A stretch of 5,192 nt of DNA from a virus. A program made the translations under genes and the position numbers. Below, piece by piece: positions 1,553 to 4,807 of the stretch (the first letter of the stretch is position 1; every line of letters starts with the position of its first letter). The notes under the pieces were generated by a model. The model saw nothing but the letters and a program-made list of their open reading frames with translations. It ran no database searches and was not told the origin of the DNA. Location: IMG/VR virus record IMGVR_UViG_3300039208_000077, positions 1 through 5,192 of that record; one strand, given 5' to 3'.

Positions 1553-2277
1553 TGGGTTTCTGGAGTGCTTTGGCTCCGTTCGCTGGTCCGCTGGCTGGTT
1601 TGTATGGTTCGTCGCAGGCCGCCAGCGGGCAACGTTCAACGAATAGAATGAATCAGCAGTTGGCGAGAGAGCAGATGCAATTTCAAGAGCGGATGTCGAA
1701 TACTGCTGTGCAGAGGCGAATGGAGGACTTGCGTAGAGCAGGTATTAACCCGATTTTGGCAGGTAAGTTTGATGCTAGTAGTCCTGCAGGTGCTATGGCC
1801 GTTATGGGTAATCCCGGTGCGGCAGGTGCGCAAGGTTTTCAGCAGGTAGGTTCTAGTGCGATGGAGATGTCGAAGATTGCGGATACGTTGGATCAAGTTC
1901 GTAGCAGAACTAATTTGACTGAGACGCAGACGAGAGCGTTGGAGTTTATGGCGAGTTTGTCAGAGAAAGGAGCCTCAGGCTTAGATGATTTGATTAGTTA
2001 TCTGGAAGGTAATCGTGACCAGATAATGGATTTTATTATGTCTTTGCCTGAATACGCTCGTAATACAGCGCAGGAGTTGCTTAGAGGCATGCGAGAATGG
2101 ACTAGTCACAGGTTTGATAATGTGGACAGTTGGATGTCGTATTACGGAGAGTTGCTGGAGCAGTTTTTACAAGGATTTGGCGAAGGCGCTGGTTTCGGTG
2201 ATGCTAAGAGATTCAATGAAGGTATTCGTAATTTTGATGAAAGAGTTCGTGATTTTGACCGGAGGTTCATGCAATGA
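1552..2277 (+). CDS. VP2: Minor capsid / DNA pilot protein VP2 (241 aa)
   Basis: ATG 1552 overlaps the VP1 stop (TGATG), suggesting translational coupling. The N-terminus [19 protein letters not shown] is Gly/Ala-rich. It is followed by the conserved gokushovirus VP2 motif [28 protein letters not shown]. The ORF-track start at 1498 is a GTG inside VP1 and is unlikely. Confidence 0.9.
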
Positions 2278-2768
2278 GTATGTTGGAGAAAAAGCCGAAG
2301 AATTACGATGATGGACGTACTGTTCAGTCGTTTAAGGATTCGGCGGATATTAATAAGATTTTGGACAAGGCGCAAAGGAAGGGCTCGCTTGCGCATGTTC
2401 AGAAGTATCCACAACACGTGTACGGAGAGTTTGACGGTGTTGATTTGCTTGGCGCTTTGCAGCGTGTAGAGCGAGCTAGGACGATTTTCGCAGAATTACC
2501 GTCCGAGGTGCGAGCGGAGTTTGATCAAGATGCGTTTAAGTTTGTAGCGTTTGCAGCAGACCCGGCGAATAATGCGAGGCTTGCCGAGTTGTTGCCTGCT
2601 ATTGCTGAGCCGGGTAGGTATTTCCCGAATCCGGTGAGCAGAGGCGCAACAGGAGCCGCGCAGGCGACTCCCCAGGTATCGCCGACAGAGACGCAGGATG
2701 CCGGGGTGCAGACAGAAGAGGCGCCGACAGGCGCGGCCGAGGAGGCTGCCGCGACAGCGGCCGAGTAG
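2274..2768 (+). CDS. VP3: Internal scaffolding protein VP3 (164 aa) with an unusual Ala/Glu/Thr/Pro-rich C-terminal tail
   Basis: GGAGG at 2261-2265 lies 8 nt upstream of ATG 2274. There is an ATGA overlap with the VP2 stop. The pattern [15 protein letters not shown]...[28 protein letters not shown] matches the Chlamydia-phage-type scaffold (VP3). Confidence 0.88.
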
Positions 2769-2796
2769 CCAGTTCCGTTACTTGTCGTGAACTGGC
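2768..2796 (+). other. Stem-loop overlapping the VP3 stop codon (8-bp stem, 13-nt loop)
   Basis: gccagttc (2768-2775) is the exact reverse complement of gaactggc (2789-2796). Confidence 0.7.
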
Positions 2797-2797
2797 T

Positions 2798-2865
2798 AAC
2801 TGACACCACCCTGAAAGGGCCGGCGATGGCCGGCCCTTTTTTTGTTTGTGTTTTTGGTGTCAGTT
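2798..2865. repeat. 11-bp long-range inverted repeat enclosing the terminator hairpin
   Basis: aactgacacca (2798-2808) is the exact reverse complement of tggtgtcagtt (2855-2865). The 46 nt between the arms contain the terminator stem-loop. Confidence 0.75.
2814..2843 (+). terminator. Rho-independent terminator after the VP1-VP2-VP3 block
   Basis: gggccggc (2817-2824) pairs with gccggccc (2829-2836) around a GATG loop. The stem is extendable by AAA/TTT and is followed by T7 (2837-2843). Confidence 0.85.
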
Positions 2866-2874
2866 TTGTATACT
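2846..2874 (+). promoter_or_regulatory. Candidate sigma70-like promoter for the accessory cassette (-35 ttgtgt, 17-nt spacer, -10 tatact)
   Basis: tatact at 2869-2874 matches TATAAT at 5 of 6 positions. ttgtgt at 2846-2851 is a weak -35. It sits between the terminator and the RBS of the 2904 ORF. Pattern match only. Confidence 0.3.
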
Positions 2875-2903
2875 AGTTTTTGTGTAACAGAGGAGATAGA
2901 GAG

Positions 2904-3101
2904 ATGGAAGAAGAAGACTTTGTGAGTCTGGTTGAAGAGGTACTAACTTGGTACTGTGAGCAGCATCATGGCTGGTTGGATTTGGTCGAGGACTGGATCG
3001 ACAGGTACGATGCTTCGCCGGAGGAGATAGAAGAGGCGAAGAATGTTGCGCTTGGTTCGAAAGCGTTTAGGCAGGCCAGAATGCTTGGAAGGAGCAGTTG
3101 A
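2904..3101 (+). CDS. Hypothetical small, highly acidic protein (65 aa), no recognised family
   Basis: AGGAG at 2891-2895 lies 8 nt upstream of ATG 2904. The ORF-track TTG start at 2880 is unlikely. Translation: MEEEDFVSLVEEVLTWYCEQHHGWLDLVEDWIDRYDASPEEIEEAKNVALGSKAFRQARMLGRSS. It has 16 D/E in the first 44 residues and is rich in Trp/Tyr. Confidence 0.6.
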   Translation: MEEEDFVSLVEEVLTWYCEQHHGWLDLVEDWIDRYDASPEEIEEAKNVALGSKAFRQARMLGRSS

Positions 3102-3128
3102 TGTATAGGATACGGCGGAAGGTGTTGT

Positions 3129-3374
3129 ATGTCTTGTACAGAGGAAAGTACGTCGAAGCGGAGCTGCTTCGAAAGTTTGGCTTCGTATAGCCATTTTGAT
3201 TTCATTGAAGAGGAGTGGAGACCGTTGGCTGATCAAGGAAAAATTGAGCAGTTGCGTGCGAGTTTAGCACGTGAGGAAAACAAGTTGCCGCGGCAGGTGA
3301 AAGCGGTGCAGGCGACAGAAGGCCTGATTGCAGTCATCAAGGCTGAGCTTGAAAGAGAGTTGAAGAAAGCGTAG
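3129..3374 (+). CDS. Hypothetical protein (81 aa) with a predicted amphipathic or coiled-coil C-terminal half, no recognised family
   Basis: GGAAGGTG (3117-3124) places its GG 6 nt upstream of ATG 3129. The C-terminus KIEQLRASLAREENKLPRQVKAVQATEGLIAVIKAELERELKKA is heptad-like. The ORF ends 33 nt before a strong terminator. Confidence 0.55.
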   Translation: MSCTEESTSKRSCFESLASYSHFDFIEEEWRPLADQGKIEQLRASLAREENKLPRQVKAVQATEGLIAVIKAELERELKKA

Positions 3375-3406
3375 AGTCCAGGCTGCCTAGCCCCAAGGCA
3401 GCGTTT

Positions 3407-3446
3407 GGCCCCAGGGGGACGGTTACCCCCCTCTGGGGCCTTTTTT
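3407..3446 (+). terminator. Rho-independent terminator closing the accessory cassette
   Basis: ggccccag (3407-3414) pairs with ctggggcc (3433-3440). An inner gggg/cccc extension follows, then T6 (3441-3446). A smaller hairpin, gctgcc (3382-3387) with ggcagc (3397-3402), precedes it. Confidence 0.85.
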
Positions 3447-3460
3447 ATGAGGAGAATGTG

Positions 3461-3592
3461 ATGGCTAATCAGACGTTTGGTAGGAAGAGTATGAGTTATA
3501 AGGGTTCGCAGGCGTATTTTTCGGCGACTGCGTCGAAGACTCATTACAAGAATGTGCAGGCGCGCCCGCAGCGCGGTGGAATTAGGTTGTAG
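3461..3592 (+). CDS. ORF8: Small basic DNA-binding/packaging protein (43 aa), gokushovirus ORF8/VP8-like and a functional analogue of phiX174 J; not in the supplied ORF track
   Basis: GAGGAG at 3449-3454 lies 6 nt upstream of ATG 3461. Manual translation: MANQTFGRKSMSYKGSQAYFSATASKTHYKNVQARPQRGGIRL*. It has 8 K/R, one His and no acidic residues. The H.KN...RP.RGGIRL C-terminus matches, from memory, the conserved end of gokushovirus ORF8 proteins. Confidence 0.75.
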   Translation: MANQTFGRKSMSYKGSQAYFSATASKTHYKNVQARPQRGGIRL

Positions 3593-4634
3593 GCGTGTGC
3601 CGTGTGTTTCTCCGTTGAAGGGCTATAAATGCCCAGAGACAGGCGGTTTAGTTTTCAGGAGAGATAATGTCAGAGAGAAAATGGAGGTTGCTTGCGGTCA
3701 GTGTCTTGGCTGTCGTTTGGATTATCGTCGTATGTGGGCAGCCCGGATCAATCATGAAGCCGCAATGCACGAATATAATGCAGGTAATTGTTTTATTACT
3801 TTGACGTATAGGGATAAGTCGAGGTGTGATGAGGAACAGTGGTTGCGCGGTAAGCATGTTCCTGATGATTGGAGTCTGAATAAGAAGCATTTTCGAGACT
3901 TCATGAAGCGATTGCGAAAGCATTTTGGAGAGCAGAAAGTTCGTTTTTACCATTGCGGAGAGTACGGAAATGTTTGTAAGCACGGTGTTCGGTTGGATGT
4001 CGTTCGCTGCCCTTTGTGTAATGTTGGGCGTCCCCATTATCATGCTGCCCTTTTTAATTGCGATTTTAGTGATTTAGAGGCGTATGAGACGGACGACTAT
4101 GGTGATTTTCGGTATACGAGCCCCACATTGGAAAGATTGTGGGGTTTCGGAAATGTGGATGTAGGTGATTTGAACTATGAGAGCGCCGCGTATATTGCAG
4201 GATATGTGATGGAAAAGATCACTGGTGTAAAAGCTGATGACCATTATTATGCGGTGTCGTTCGATGGTGAGGTTACTTACTTGCAGCCGGAGTACGCGAC
4301 AATGAGTAGAGGCAGGCCTTGTGCGGATCATGATCATATAACGGTCGGTTGTGACCGGTGCGATGGAGGCATCGGTTGGAGTTGGTTTAATAAGTACAAA
4401 GATGATGTGTTTCCTAGAGATCAGGTTCCGGTAGTTGGTAAGGGTGTTTTGAAAAAAGCGCCTCGGTACTATGAGACTATTTATGCTGAGGAGAATGCGA
4501 CCAGTTTGGAAGAGGTCAAAAGGATTCGGCAGGAGTTTCGTAAGGCGCATGAACATGATTACACGCCGGAGAGGTTGCTTGATAAGTATAAGGTTTTGGC
4601 TGCTAGAGAGTCGTTAAAGAGTAAAGAGCTTTGA
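3552..4634 (+). CDS. VP4: Replication initiation protein VP4 (HUH rolling-circle endonuclease, phiX174 gpA family); start uncertain (ATG 3552 or GTG 3597)
   Basis: Motifs: PCVSPLKGY, ACGQCLGCRLDYRRMWAARINHEAAMH, NCFITLTY, FMKRLRK, RFYHCGEYG, HUH motif RPHYHAALFN (H162/H164, nt 4035-4043) and catalytic Tyr motif SAAYIAGYVMEKITG (nt 4179-4217). GTG 3597 would give the canonical MPCxSPL N-terminus and avoid overlap with ORF8. ATG 3552 overlaps ORF8 by 41 nt. Confidence 0.93.
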   Translation: MCRRARSAVELGCRRVPCVSPLKGYKCPETGGLVFRRDNVREKMEVACGQCLGCRLDYRRMWAARINHEAAMHEYNAGNCFITLTYRDKSRCDEEQWLRGKHVPDDWSLNKKHFRDFMKRLRKHFGEQKVRFYHCGEYGNVCKHGVRLDVVRCPLCNVGRPHYHAALFNCDFSDLEAYETDDYGDFRYTSPTLERLWGFGNVDVGDLNYESAAYIAGYVMEKITGVKADDHYYAVSFDGEVTYLQPEYATMSRGRPCADHDHITVGCDRCDGGIGWSWFNKYKDDVFPRDQVPVVGKGVLKKAPRYYETIYAEENATSLEEVKRIRQEFRKAHEHDYTPERLLDKYKVLAARESLKSKEL

Positions 4635-4648
4635 AGGATAATAGCTGG

Positions 4649-4807
4649 ATGCGTGACATGAAGACTGTGAGGCCGAAAAAGGAAATTTTAGGCGTTAGCA
4701 ATTTGACGGCGGCGCGTATAGCGCACGCAGTTTGGAAGAGAAAATACGGTGGAAACCGTTGGGAAGCGTTTAAGAGGAGAAACAAGAATGAAGTCACCGA
4801 TGTTTAG
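4649..4807 (+). CDS. Possible small basic protein (52 aa) with a helix-turn-helix-like core; speculative
   Basis: Manual translation: MRDMKTVRPKKEILGVSNLTAARIAHAVWKRKYGGNRWEAFKRRNKNEVTDV*. AAGGA (4634-4638) lies 10 nt upstream of the ATG. The ORF fills the otherwise non-coding VP4-VP5 spacer and overlaps the VP5 start by 20 nt. It is below the ORF-track size cut-off. Confidence 0.3.
   Translation: MRDMKTVRPKKEILGVSNLTAARIAHAVWKRKYGGNRWEAFKRRNKNEVTDV

What the first reader, a model, noticed from the sequence alone, without database searches (positions are those of the whole stretch)
2769..3446. Terminator-bounded, moron-like two-ORF accessory cassette inserted between VP3 and ORF8 of a microvirus
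Canonical gokushovirus genomes run VP3 -> ORF8/VP4 with little spacer. Here about 680 nt sit between them and are organised as an autonomous unit. It begins with a strong intrinsic terminator (2814-2843) that ends the structural operon, followed by a candidate promoter (2846-2874). Two SD-preceded orphan ORFs follow, then a second strong intrinsic terminator (3407-3446). I recognise neither ORF product as a Microviridae core protein. ORF 2904-3101 is very small, strongly acidic (16 D/E in 44 residues) and aromatic-rich. That profile is shared by DNA-mimic, anti-restriction and anti-CRISPR-type phage proteins. ORF 3129-3374 has a coiled-coil-like C-terminus. The cassette accounts for the 5,093-nt genome, which I recall being at the large end for gokushoviruses. 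A promoter-gene-terminator moron is well known in tailed phages but is scarcely characterised in the roughly 5-kb Microviridae, where every nucleotide is under packaging constraint. The anti-defence or host-takeover function is a hypothesis only.
Basis: partly seen in the sequence, partly recalled or inferred. Interest (0 to 1): 0.78.

Follow-up and report, generated by a model that had tools for sequence, protein, structure and literature searches.

The report
Orphan two-gene accessory module in gokushovirus
Two small genes of unknown function sit in a variable slot of a 5.1-kb single-stranded DNA phage, next to its likely replication origin; related phages carry other small genes there, so this is real but fairly ordinary.

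Summary
Two strong hairpin-plus-T-run terminators (T1 2813-2847, T2 3407-3446) flank two ORFs preceded by Shine-Dalgarno sequences (SD): A at 2904-3101 and B at 3129-3374. They lie between VP3 and the ORF8 DNA-binding gene of a circular 5,093-nt gokushovirus.

Both ORFs are real genes. A relative with about 70% nucleotide identity (L004) keeps both in the same order. ORF B also occurs, unannotated, in GenBank MH572418. ORF B evolves like VP3 (pN 0.22, pS 0.77). ORF A evolves faster (33% identity).

Neither matches any family, structure or defence or anti-defence model. The anti-restriction idea has no support beyond acidity.

The "autonomous moron" picture is only partly right:
- The first 40 nt (2769-2807) are a core stem-loop plus CTGACACC box found in 21 related loci and in EC6098; Chp2 and phiMH2K carry the stem-loop with a variant box. 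It resembles the phiX174 origin.
- Terminators at these positions also occur in relatives without the cassette.
- Base composition matches the rest of the genome.
- The VP3-ORF8 interval is a general accessory slot. Relatives carry a helix-turn-helix (HTH) protein, a lipoprotein, an M15-like peptidase, another orphan, or nothing.

Verdict: a new orphan module in a known kind of variable region. Interest is moderate to low.

The parts
2274..2768 (+). VP3 internal scaffolding gene (upstream context)
   Evidence: Pfam Chlamy_scaf E 1.2e-24, phrog_1642
2769..2795 (+). Conserved stem-loop CCAGTTC-cgttACTTGtcgt-GAACTGG. Candidate viral-strand origin, with a predicted nick at G2784/T2785 by analogy with phiX174.
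   Evidence: Found once per genome in 21 related loci and in EC6098, Chp2 and phiMH2K. 158 of 168 stem cells pair, against 42-60 when the 3' arm is slid. The loop shares ACTTG(A/T)T with the phiX174 ori.
2800..2807 (+). Box CTGACACC, 3 nt after the 8-bp stem counted. It is also the 5' arm of an outer stem that pairs with 2855-2863 (TGGTGTCAG).
   Evidence: The two 8-mers occur 7 and 6 times in 103 kb of loci, against about 1.6 expected each, nearly all just after VP3. The outer stem appears in the fold.
2813..2847 (+). T1: intrinsic terminator-like hairpin plus T7, at the end of the VP1-VP2-VP3 unit
   Evidence: A hairpin of different sequence sits at the same place in L004, L002, L001, L034 and L010.
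2846..2874 (+). Sigma-70-like promoter candidate TTGTGT-17-TATACT
   Evidence: 8 of 12 matches. The same hexamer and spacing occur in L004, and a comparable motif in L002. Not tested experimentally.
2904..3101 (+). ORF A: 65 aa, acidic (pI 4.3), predicted four short helices, orphan
   Evidence: SD GAGGAG at 2890-2895. Homologue at L004 3008-3199 (33% identity, tblastn 1.7e-7; pN 0.48, pS 0.91). AlphaFold2 (AF2) pLDDT 68. No family or fold hit.
3129..3374 (+). ORF B: 81 aa from the ATG. The conserved core runs from about 3189. One long helix, coiled-coil-like.
   Evidence: Homologues at L004 3192-3383 (68% identity) and MH572418 2841-2993 (42-50% identity, unannotated). pN 0.22 against pS 0.77, as for VP3. 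AF2: residues 36-80 form one helix with pLDDT above 90; residues 1-21 are disordered.
3382..3402 (+). Small hairpin GGCTGCC...GGCAGC(C) just upstream of T2
   Evidence: Fold of 3375-3460. Function unknown.
3407..3446 (+). T2: intrinsic terminator-like hairpin plus T6, immediately before the SD of ORF8. Proposed to attenuate read-through into ORF8-VP4.
   Evidence: -26.9 kcal/mol. A hairpin of different sequence plus T6 sits at the same place in L004. The same terminator-SD-ORF8 layout occurs in cassette-less L003.
3461..3592 (+). ORF8/VP8-like basic DNA-binding protein (downstream context)
   Evidence: phrog_10695 E 7e-13; pI 11.1
3597..4634 (+). VP4 replication initiator. The probable start is GTG 3597 (MPCVSPLKGYK), not the ATG 3681 of the public gene call.
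   Evidence: Pfam REP_ORF2-G2P, phrog_942. The N-terminus PC(Y/V)SPLKG is conserved in L002, L004, L034 and L072.

Best explanation
The interval is composite, with backbone signals around a lineage-specific module.

1. Directly after VP3 lies a core gokushovirus cis-element: an 8-bp stem, a loop containing ACTTG, a 3-nt spacer and the box CTGACACC. It is most likely the VP4 nick site, i.e. the viral-strand origin.
2. T1 then ends the VP1-VP2-VP3 transcription unit.
3. A weak sigma-70-like promoter directly after T1 drives a bicistronic accessory module. ORF A is a small, acidic, fast-evolving helical protein. ORF B is a conserved protein with one long helix, probably an oligomeric coiled coil.
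4. T2 sits right before the ORF8 ribosome-binding site with no room for another promoter. It lets only part of the transcripts run on into ORF8-VP4, as leaky terminators do in phiX174.

The module occupies the variable slot next to the origin, where related gokushoviruses carry other small accessory genes or none. It is therefore dispensable for the basic life cycle and most likely modulates the phage-host interaction. It has resided in ssDNA genomes for a long time, or arose there, rather than being a recent import.

Shown: anatomy, conservation, purifying selection, the slot's variable cargo, and the absence of homologues. Inferred: promoter activity, attenuation at T2, origin function, and any biochemical role.
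For: - Genome map and core genes.
- Terminators are strong, and hairpins of different sequence occupy the same positions in L004 and L002.
- Promoter-like motif with identical -35 and spacing in L004. The block TTTTTTGTTTGTGTTTT..TGGTG.CAGT is nearly invariant between W (this window's genome) and L004.
- ORF A and ORF B are conserved in L004, and ORF B in MH572418.
- pN/pS: ORF B 0.22/0.77 and VP3 0.22/0.61; ORF A 0.48/0.91.
- Slot length varies from 72 to 695 nt.
- Alternative cargo in relatives: M15-like peptidase (L029, Pfam E 2e-4), lipobox proteins (L008, L036, L105), HTH proteins (L034, L072; Pfam HTH_28 E 3.5e-5) and another orphan (L010).
- Composition equals the backbone.
- Origin-like element.
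- Layout terminator-SD-ORF8 in cassette-less L003.
Against: - No transcript data exist.
- The promoter matches only 8 of 12 positions and the host, hence its sigma factor, is unknown.
- The hairpins could act on single-stranded DNA, for example in complementary-strand priming, rather than or as well as on RNA.
- ORF B evolves as slowly as core genes and is shared by three genomes at 64-70% VP1 identity. In this small clade it might be functionally integrated rather than accessory.
- Only two or three genomes carry the module, so selection estimates rest on single pairs with saturated synonymous sites.
- The origin-like element is inverted in four relatives, which a simple nick-site model does not explain.
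Confidence: 0.6

Rival explanations
1. One reading: ORF A is a DNA-mimic or anti-restriction/anti-CRISPR-type protein, and the cassette is an anti-defence moron expressed on its own.
For: ORF A is small and acidic (net -10, 16 D/E in 44 residues) and evolves fast, as arms-race proteins do. It sits behind a promoter-like motif and before a terminator.
Against: There is no hit to any anti-defence, defence or DNA-mimic family or fold. PADLOC, Pfam, PHROGs and NCBIfam gave none. Foldseek against PDB gave E > 6 and against BFVD E > 0.9. The PDB sequence search gave E > 0.2. The AF2 model has low confidence (pLDDT 68). The L004 homologue has only half the net charge. Acidity is common in small phage proteins.
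Confidence: 0.1
2. ORF A and/or ORF B are lineage-specific core factors, for example a chaperone for the very basic ORF8 protein, an assembly or replication regulator, or a modulator of VP4. They would not be dispensable accessory genes.
For: ORF B shows purifying selection equal to VP3 and lies directly next to ORF8 in all three genomes, abutting it in MH572418. ORF A is acidic and ORF8 is basic, pI 11. A and B are translationally coupled in L004 by an overlap GTGTCTGA.
Against: Both are absent from the other genomes of the 64-66% VP1 clade for which the slot is on record: L072, L034 and L010 carry unrelated cargo. Both are absent from all isolates and from 50,697 phage records, apart from the ORF B match in MH572418. 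There is no similarity to any core protein of the same genome.
Confidence: 0.2
3. The hairpins T1 and T2, and the outer CTGACACCA/TGGTGTCAG stem, are mainly single-stranded-DNA signals such as a complementary-strand origin or packaging signal. The terminator look would be secondary.
For: The outer stem encloses T1 and its T-run, so it can form only in ssDNA or in read-through RNA. Relatives L014 and L072 have the same CTGACACC...GGTGTCAG hairpin without a nested terminator. The whole stretch 2769-2880 is far more structured than shuffles (z -7.0).
Against: Canonical terminator geometry (G+C stem, short loop, T6-7) recurs with unrelated stem sequences in W, L004, L002, L001, L003, L010, L012, L021 and L034. 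T-runs are not needed for an ssDNA hairpin. The two roles are not exclusive.
Confidence: 0.2
4. The ORFs are chance open frames in a non-coding spacer.
For: They are short and orphan. Public gene callers disagree on the ORF B start (65 against 81 aa), and in L004 they called a different frame for the ORF A region.
Against: Frames, order and SD signals are conserved at about 70% nucleotide identity. ORF B is 68% identical in protein while synonymous sites are saturated. A third homologue exists in MH572418.
Confidence: 0.03

Closest known systems
Morons of tailed (lambdoid) phages: an extra gene with its own promoter and terminator between two conserved genes (own knowledge: Juhala et al. 2000; Hendrix)
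   Same: Extra genes that are absent from relatives at the same junction, a promoter-like motif upstream and a factor-independent terminator downstream.
   Different: Composition does not deviate from the flanks. The terminators belong to the backbone, since they are present in relatives without the genes. There is no sign of lysogeny or prophage expression. The replicon is a 5-kb ssDNA genome, and the module sits next to the origin-like element.
Accessory genes of microviruses as surveyed by Kirchberger, Martinez and Ochman 2022 (PMC9239249)
   Same: That survey reports limited accessory repertoires: peptidases, methyltransferases and many small (about 65 aa) proteins of unknown function at conserved or varied locations. 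ORF A and ORF B (65 and 63-81 aa) fit this class. The M15-like peptidase of L029 in the same slot fits their lysis-gene class.
   Different: ORF A and ORF B match none of the described families. I did not find the VP3-ORF8 slot next to the origin-like hairpin, or its alternative cargo (HTH, lipoprotein, orphan pairs), described in the papers I could read.
phiX174 transcription plan: a few promoters and leaky intrinsic terminators that grade expression (own knowledge)
   Same: Hairpin-plus-T-run sites between gene blocks on a one-strand genome. A terminator sits directly in front of the low-abundance replication block.
   Different: It is unproven here. The positions differ, and in L002 and L072 the second terminator is after ORF8 rather than before it.
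phiX174 viral-strand origin CAACTTG^ATATTAATAACACTATAGACCAC (NC_001422 4299-4328, rep_origin annotated at 4306)
   Same: The gokushovirus element shares ACTTGAT and the G-N17-GAC spacing (15 of 30 identical for L034). VP4 belongs to the same Rep lineage (weak Pfam Phage_GPA hit).
   Different: Here the site lies in the loop of a covarying 8-bp hairpin in a non-coding region, not inside the rep gene. W itself has ACTTGTC. Four relatives carry it inverted.
DNA-mimic anti-restriction and anti-CRISPR proteins (Ocr, ArdA, AcrIIA4 and others; own knowledge)
   Same: Small size and strong negative charge of ORF A.
   Different: No sequence or fold similarity was found, and the charge is not conserved in the only homologue.

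Membership tests
Moron (tailed-phage sense) | Extra gene(s) absent from close relatives at the same gene junction | tested here: met
   A and B are present only in W and L004, and B also in L002. L072, L034, L010, L008 and L003 have other cargo or none.
Moron (tailed-phage sense) | Own promoter | tested here: inconclusive
   TTGTGT-17-TATACT (8 of 12) is conserved in L004, but below the scan threshold. No transcript data.
Moron (tailed-phage sense) | Own terminator | tested here: inconclusive
   T2 is strong. However, an equivalent terminator-SD-ORF8 layout exists in cassette-less L003, and in L002 and L072 it lies after ORF8.
Moron (tailed-phage sense) | Nucleotide composition different from the flanking genome | tested here: not met
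   GC is 0.50 and 0.49 and GC skew +0.43 and +0.35, against 0.48 and +0.30 for the genome.
Moron (tailed-phage sense) | Expressed from a prophage or independently of the phage programme | not testable with these tools
   No integrase gene appears among the ORFs and family hits of the window. I did not look for a dif-like site. Needs experiments.
Gokushovirus core proteins (VP1-VP5, VP8) | Homology to a core family | tested here: not met
   No Pfam or PHROG hit for A or B. No similarity to the genome's own core proteins.
DNA-mimic, anti-restriction or anti-CRISPR proteins | Sequence or fold similarity to a known member | tested here: not met
   all gave no significant match.
DNA-mimic, anti-restriction or anti-CRISPR proteins | Conserved array of surface negative charge | tested here: inconclusive
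   Net charge is -10 in W and -5 in L004. The model is too uncertain for a surface analysis (pLDDT 68).
DNA-mimic, anti-restriction or anti-CRISPR proteins | Inhibition of a defence system | not testable with these tools
   Needs expression assays.
Intrinsic (rho-independent) terminator | G+C-rich hairpin followed at once by a T-run | tested here: met
   T1: 12 pairs, 8 G-C, T7. T2: -26.9 kcal/mol, T6.
Intrinsic (rho-independent) terminator | Structure kept in relatives despite sequence change | tested here: met
   L004 and L002 have hairpins of unrelated sequence with T-runs at the same positions.
Intrinsic (rho-independent) terminator | Termination in vivo or in vitro | not testable with these tools
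   Needs 3'-end mapping.
phiX174-type rolling-circle origin | Nick-site motif ACTTG^AT and a distal GAC box at fixed spacing | tested here: met
   Most of the 21 loci aligned have ACTTGAT, and G-N17-GAC was counted by hand on L034. W has ACTTGTC. EC6098 carries GTGACACC, while the distal box is variant in Chp2 (GTGATAGC) and phiMH2K.
phiX174-type rolling-circle origin | Located on the packaged (coding) strand | tested here: inconclusive
   On the coding strand in W, in 16 other loci of the set and in the three isolates. On the other strand in L001, L002, L008 and L105.
phiX174-type rolling-circle origin | Cleavage by the Rep protein | not testable with these tools
   Needs purified VP4.

The most novel reading that the evidence does not exclude
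ORF A and ORF B form a self-contained, separately transcribed host-takeover or anti-defence unit. This would be a true moron in a 5-kb ssDNA phage. The slot beside the origin would be the place where gokushoviruses swap such units: HTH regulator, lipoprotein, peptidase or orphan pairs. Swapping could occur through Rep-mediated illegitimate recombination at the nick site.
Probability: 0.12. Interest if true: 0.7.

Novelty: new member of a known kind. Interest (0 to 1): 0.36.

Why it matters
Microviruses are among the most abundant phages, yet their accessory genes are almost unstudied, and gene callers often miss them. The ORF B homologue is unannotated in GenBank MH572418, and the ORF A homologue was not called in L004.

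This case shows that the VP3-ORF8 interval next to the origin-like hairpin is a cargo slot with interchangeable small genes. That gives a defined place to look for host-interaction functions in thousands of metagenomic gokushovirus genomes.

The module itself is rare, seen in only two or three genomes, and its function is unknown, so its own weight is modest. The origin-like element, and its inversion in some genomes, may be the more useful by-product.

Tried and rejected
Searches that found nothing for ORF A or ORF B:
- Pfam, PHROGs, NCBIfam and PADLOC. The only entry was a terminase-small-subunit PHROG at E 0.016 for ORF A, treated as noise.
- The 5.8-billion-protein word-indexed search gave only self hits and P0003.
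- Full HMMER of ORF A against 1.84 billion representatives returned three long repeat proteins (P0004-P0006). They matched in 4-6 stretches on a W(I/V)xxYD(G/A)-type repeat, and I rejected them as repeat or compositional matches.
- tblastn against 50,697 phage records: ORF A none; ORF B only MH572418.
- IMG/VR scans with both proteins, both alignments and a back-translated REENKLPRQ motif found nothing.
- Foldseek of the ORF A model against PDB and BFVD, and PDB sequence profiles, found nothing significant.

Other tests that led nowhere:
- hhalign of ORF A against the HTH proteins of L072 and L034 showed no relation.
- No paralogy to the genome's own proteins.
- Rfam returned only a sub-threshold chance hit over T2.
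- The genome-contig scan with the hairpin-box pattern returned mostly chance matches. tblastn of all loci fetched found VP homologues only in four IMG/VR contigs, so it gave no host clue.
- A promoter-like site inside the 3' end of ORF B (3349-3377) is not conserved in L004, so I did not adopt it.
- The 'defensive hypervariable region' of Kirchberger et al. 2021 lies within VP2, not in a separate ORF, so it is not a precedent.
Full report
WHAT THE WINDOW IS. The 5,192 bases are a circular genome of 5,093 nt with a 99-nt terminal redundancy. It is identical to a JGI metagenome contig (3300038492) and to two Logan assemblies. All genes lie on the + strand:
- VP1 (Phage_F, E 8.5e-146)
- VP2 (pilot-protein PHROGs)
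- VP3 at 2274-2768 (Chlamy_scaf)
- a 43-aa basic ORF8/VP8-like protein at 3461-3592 (phrog_10695)
- VP4 (REP_ORF2-G2P, phrog_942)
- a 52-aa orphan ORF
- VP5 (Phage_ORF5)

The genome is a gokushovirus-type microvirus. The nearest GenBank records are KP087936, MH572418 and Fen672_31, at about 65-70% nucleotide identity over parts of the genome. Below, W stands for this window's genome.

CHECK OF THE OBSERVATION.
- T1 (2813-2840 plus T7) is the best terminator-like site in the genome (-19.4 kcal/mol).
- T2 (3407-3440 plus T6; -26.9 kcal/mol) is the strongest hairpin followed by a T-run.
- The stretch 2769-2880 folds far better than shuffles (z -7.0), and 3375-3460 moderately better (z -2.5).
- ORF A (2904-3101, 65 aa) has 16 D/E in its first 44 residues and a net charge of -10. 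ORF B (3129-3374, 81 aa) follows after 27 nt. Both have Shine-Dalgarno (SD) sequences.
- The promoter candidate 2846-2874 is weak (8 of 12, not listed).

ARE THE ORFS GENES? Yes. A Logan contig (L004; VP1 70% and VP3 69% identical) has the same layout after VP3: hairpin, terminator, an ORF A homologue (3008-3199, 33% identity, missed by the public gene caller), an ORF B homologue (3192-3383, 68% identity) overlapping it by 8 nt, a second terminator, and ORF8.

GenBank MH572418 (L002) has an unannotated ORF B homologue (2841-2993, 42-50% identity) directly in front of ORF8, and no ORF A.

With synonymous sites saturated, ORF B shows pN 0.22 against pS 0.77, the same as VP3 (0.22 and 0.61). ORF A shows pN 0.48 against pS 0.91, so it is constrained but fast-evolving.

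The conserved part of ORF B starts near residue 21. The AlphaFold2 (AF2) model has residues 1-21 disordered and residues 36-80 as one long helix with pLDDT above 90. ORF A is modelled as four short helices at low confidence (pLDDT 68).

WHAT ARE THEY RELATED TO? Nothing that could be found.
- Pfam, PHROGs, NCBIfam, PADLOC, PDB sequence profiles and Foldseek against PDB and BFVD gave no significant hit.
- The 5.8-billion-protein search found only the query and the L004 protein.
- Full HMMER against 1.84 billion representatives found only repeat-protein noise.
- tblastn against 50,697 phage records found only MH572418, for ORF B.
- IMG/VR scans found nothing.
- There is no paralogy with the genome's own proteins.

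The anti-defence idea therefore rests only on the acidity of ORF A, and the L004 homologue is only half as acidic.

THE SURROUNDINGS CHANGE THE PICTURE.

1. The first 40 nt belong to a core element. The stretch 2769-2807 is a conserved element, not cassette sequence. It consists of an 8-bp stem, a 12-17-nt loop with (T/C)ACTTG(A/T)TGT, a 3-nt spacer and the box (C/G)TGACACC.
- It occurs in 21 of the related gokushovirus loci fetched, and once each in the isolates EC6098, Chp2 and phiMH2K. Where I scanned whole genomes (eight loci), there was exactly one per genome. It is nearly always in the non-coding stretch after VP3, but after VP5 in phiMH2K.
- The stem covaries: 158 of 168 cells pair, against 42-60 when the 3' arm is slid, with several pair types at six of the eight positions.
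- The loop and box resemble the phiX174 origin CAACTTG^ATATTAATAACACTATAGACCAC, read from NC_001422 where the origin is annotated at 4306. They share ACTTGAT and the G-N17-GAC spacing.
- I take it as the likely VP4 nick site.
- I found no description of it in the searchable library. It may nevertheless be in older papers that are not held.

2. The terminators belong to the backbone. A hairpin plus T-run follows VP3 or the origin-like element in W, L004, L002, L001, L003, L010, L012, L021 and L034.
- In cassette-less L003 the terminator is followed at once by the SD and start of ORF8. That is exactly the arrangement of T2 in W and L004.
- In L002 and L072 the second terminator lies between ORF8 and VP4.
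- Only 14 nt separate the T-run of T2 from the ORF8 start. ORF8-VP4 must therefore be reached by read-through, which suggests an attenuator that keeps Rep expression low, as in phiX174 (own knowledge).

3. A promoter-like motif directly after T1 is conserved. W has TTGTGT-17-TATACT, L004 has TTGTGT-17-TATAGT and L002 has TTGATA-17-TATTTT.

4. The slot is variable across the group. The VP3 stop to ORF8 start distance is 72-122 nt in four relatives, about 280 nt in two, 432 nt in one, and 693-695 nt in W and L004. The cargo differs even among the closest relatives (VP1 64-70% identical):
- A+B in W and L004
- B in L002
- a 69-71-aa HTH protein in L034 and L072. L072 comes from the same sample as W. 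Pfam HTH_28/HTH_23, E about 4e-5.
- another 71-aa orphan in L010
- a lipobox lipoprotein in L008, L036 and L105
- a 116-aa M15-like peptidase in L029 (Pfam E 2e-4, just under the cut-off)

5. The cassette has the same G+C content and the same strong G>C skew as the rest of the genome. This argues against recent import from a double-stranded source.

MOST LIKELY MECHANISM. The order of elements is: VP3 stop; origin-like hairpin and box; T1 ending the structural transcript; a weak promoter; the ORF A-ORF B bicistron; T2 as an attenuator; and ORF8-VP4-VP5.

ORF B is probably an oligomeric coiled coil. ORF A is a small acidic helical protein that changes fast. Both are dispensable for gokushoviruses in general, so they most likely tune the interaction with a particular host.

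Why here? Rolling-circle origins are known recombination hot spots in other Rep-encoding replicons (own knowledge). That would explain a cargo slot beside the nick site, but this step is inference.

Function remains open. I give about 0.1 to anti-defence, about 0.2 to a clade-specific replication or assembly helper, and the remainder to other host-interaction roles.

COMPARISON AND NOVELTY. The module works somewhat like a moron: extra genes, a promoter-like motif and a terminator. It fails the composition criterion, and its terminators are not its own.

It fits the class of small accessory microvirus proteins noted by Kirchberger et al. 2022 (PMC9239249). That paper reports few accessory genes, mostly peptidases, methyltransferases and peptides of about 65 aa of unknown function.

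It is a new orphan pair in a known kind of variable region. The genome (5,093 nt) is the largest among the relatives retrieved (4.2-4.9 kb) because of this module and a 153-nt insert between VP4 and VP5.

VERDICT. Interest is moderate to low (0.36). The by-product, a universal origin-like hairpin that is inverted in four genomes, deserves its own follow-up.

Noticed in passing
window 2769-2807; also L004 2770-2808, L034 ~3745-3783, L072 ~4703-4741, EC6098 (L228) ~1689-1724, Chp2 (L229) ~2905-2950, phiMH2K (L227) ~3300-3345: A conserved gokushovirus stem-loop: 8-bp covarying stem, loop with ACTTG(A/T)TGT, 3-nt spacer and the box (C/G)TGACACC. Where whole genomes were scanned there is one per genome. 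It resembles the phiX174 origin in sharing ACTTGAT and the G-N17-GAC spacing. It is the likely VP4 nick site. I found no description in the searchable papers.
   Followed up: partly
L001 (KP087936) ~4097-4135, L002 (MH572418) 2720-2758, L008 3740-3780, L105 ~1860-1900: In these four genomes the only copy of the origin-like element lies on the non-coding strand, inverted as a block (GGTGTCAG-nnnn-CCAGTTC..CAAGT..GAACTGG). If it is the nick site, these viruses would package the antisense strand. Otherwise the element works in either orientation. This is unexplained.
   Followed up: partly
window 2800-2808 with 2855-2863: CTGACACCA pairs with TGGTGTCAG around T1 and its T-run, so T1 sits in the loop of a larger hairpin. 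L014 (2647-2670) and L072 (~4734-4764) have the same CTGACACC...GGTGTC(C)AG hairpin with a short loop and no nested terminator.
   Followed up: partly
window 4649-4807: A second orphan ORF: 52 aa, basic, called by JGI. It lies in a 153-nt insert between VP4 and VP5, overlaps the VP5 start, and has no homologue in any relative fetched. L001 (901-1077) and L002 (4180-4365) carry a different, Cys-rich 58-61-aa ORF at the same junction, conserved between them.
   Followed up: partly
window 3597-3680: VP4 probably starts at GTG 3597 (MPCVSPLKGYK...), 5 nt after the ORF8 stop. The public gene call starts at ATG 3681 (317 aa). The motif PC(Y/V)SPLKG is conserved in L002, L004, L034 and L072.
   Followed up: partly
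L072 4875-5090 (doubled coordinates; = 99-314) and L034 4112-4320: Relatives at 66% VP1 identity carry a 69-71-aa helix-turn-helix protein in the slot; L072 comes from the same sample as the window. A long inverted repeat precedes it (tattctcctttgt...acaaagaggata). It is a candidate transcription regulator in a gokushovirus.
   Followed up: partly
L008 3781-4014, L036 3431-3616, L105 1962-2186; L029 1357-1707; L010 4027-4242: Other cargo in the same slot: homologous lipobox lipoproteins in L008 and L036 and an unrelated one in L105; an M15-like peptidase (Pfam E 2e-4, under the cut-off) in L029; and another 71-aa orphan in L010.
   Followed up: partly
L001 (KP087936.1) 4090-4176: This 'partial genome' record ends exactly in the T-run of the terminator after VP3 and restarts inside VP4. 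The unsequenced piece is therefore precisely the variable slot, and its cargo is unknown.
   Followed up: no
L002 (MH572418.1) 2841-2993; L004 3008-3199: Annotation gaps. The ORF B homologue is not annotated in the GenBank record. In L004 the public gene caller chose a different frame (2893-3093) over the conserved ORF A homologue, so that protein is missing from protein databases.
   Followed up: yes
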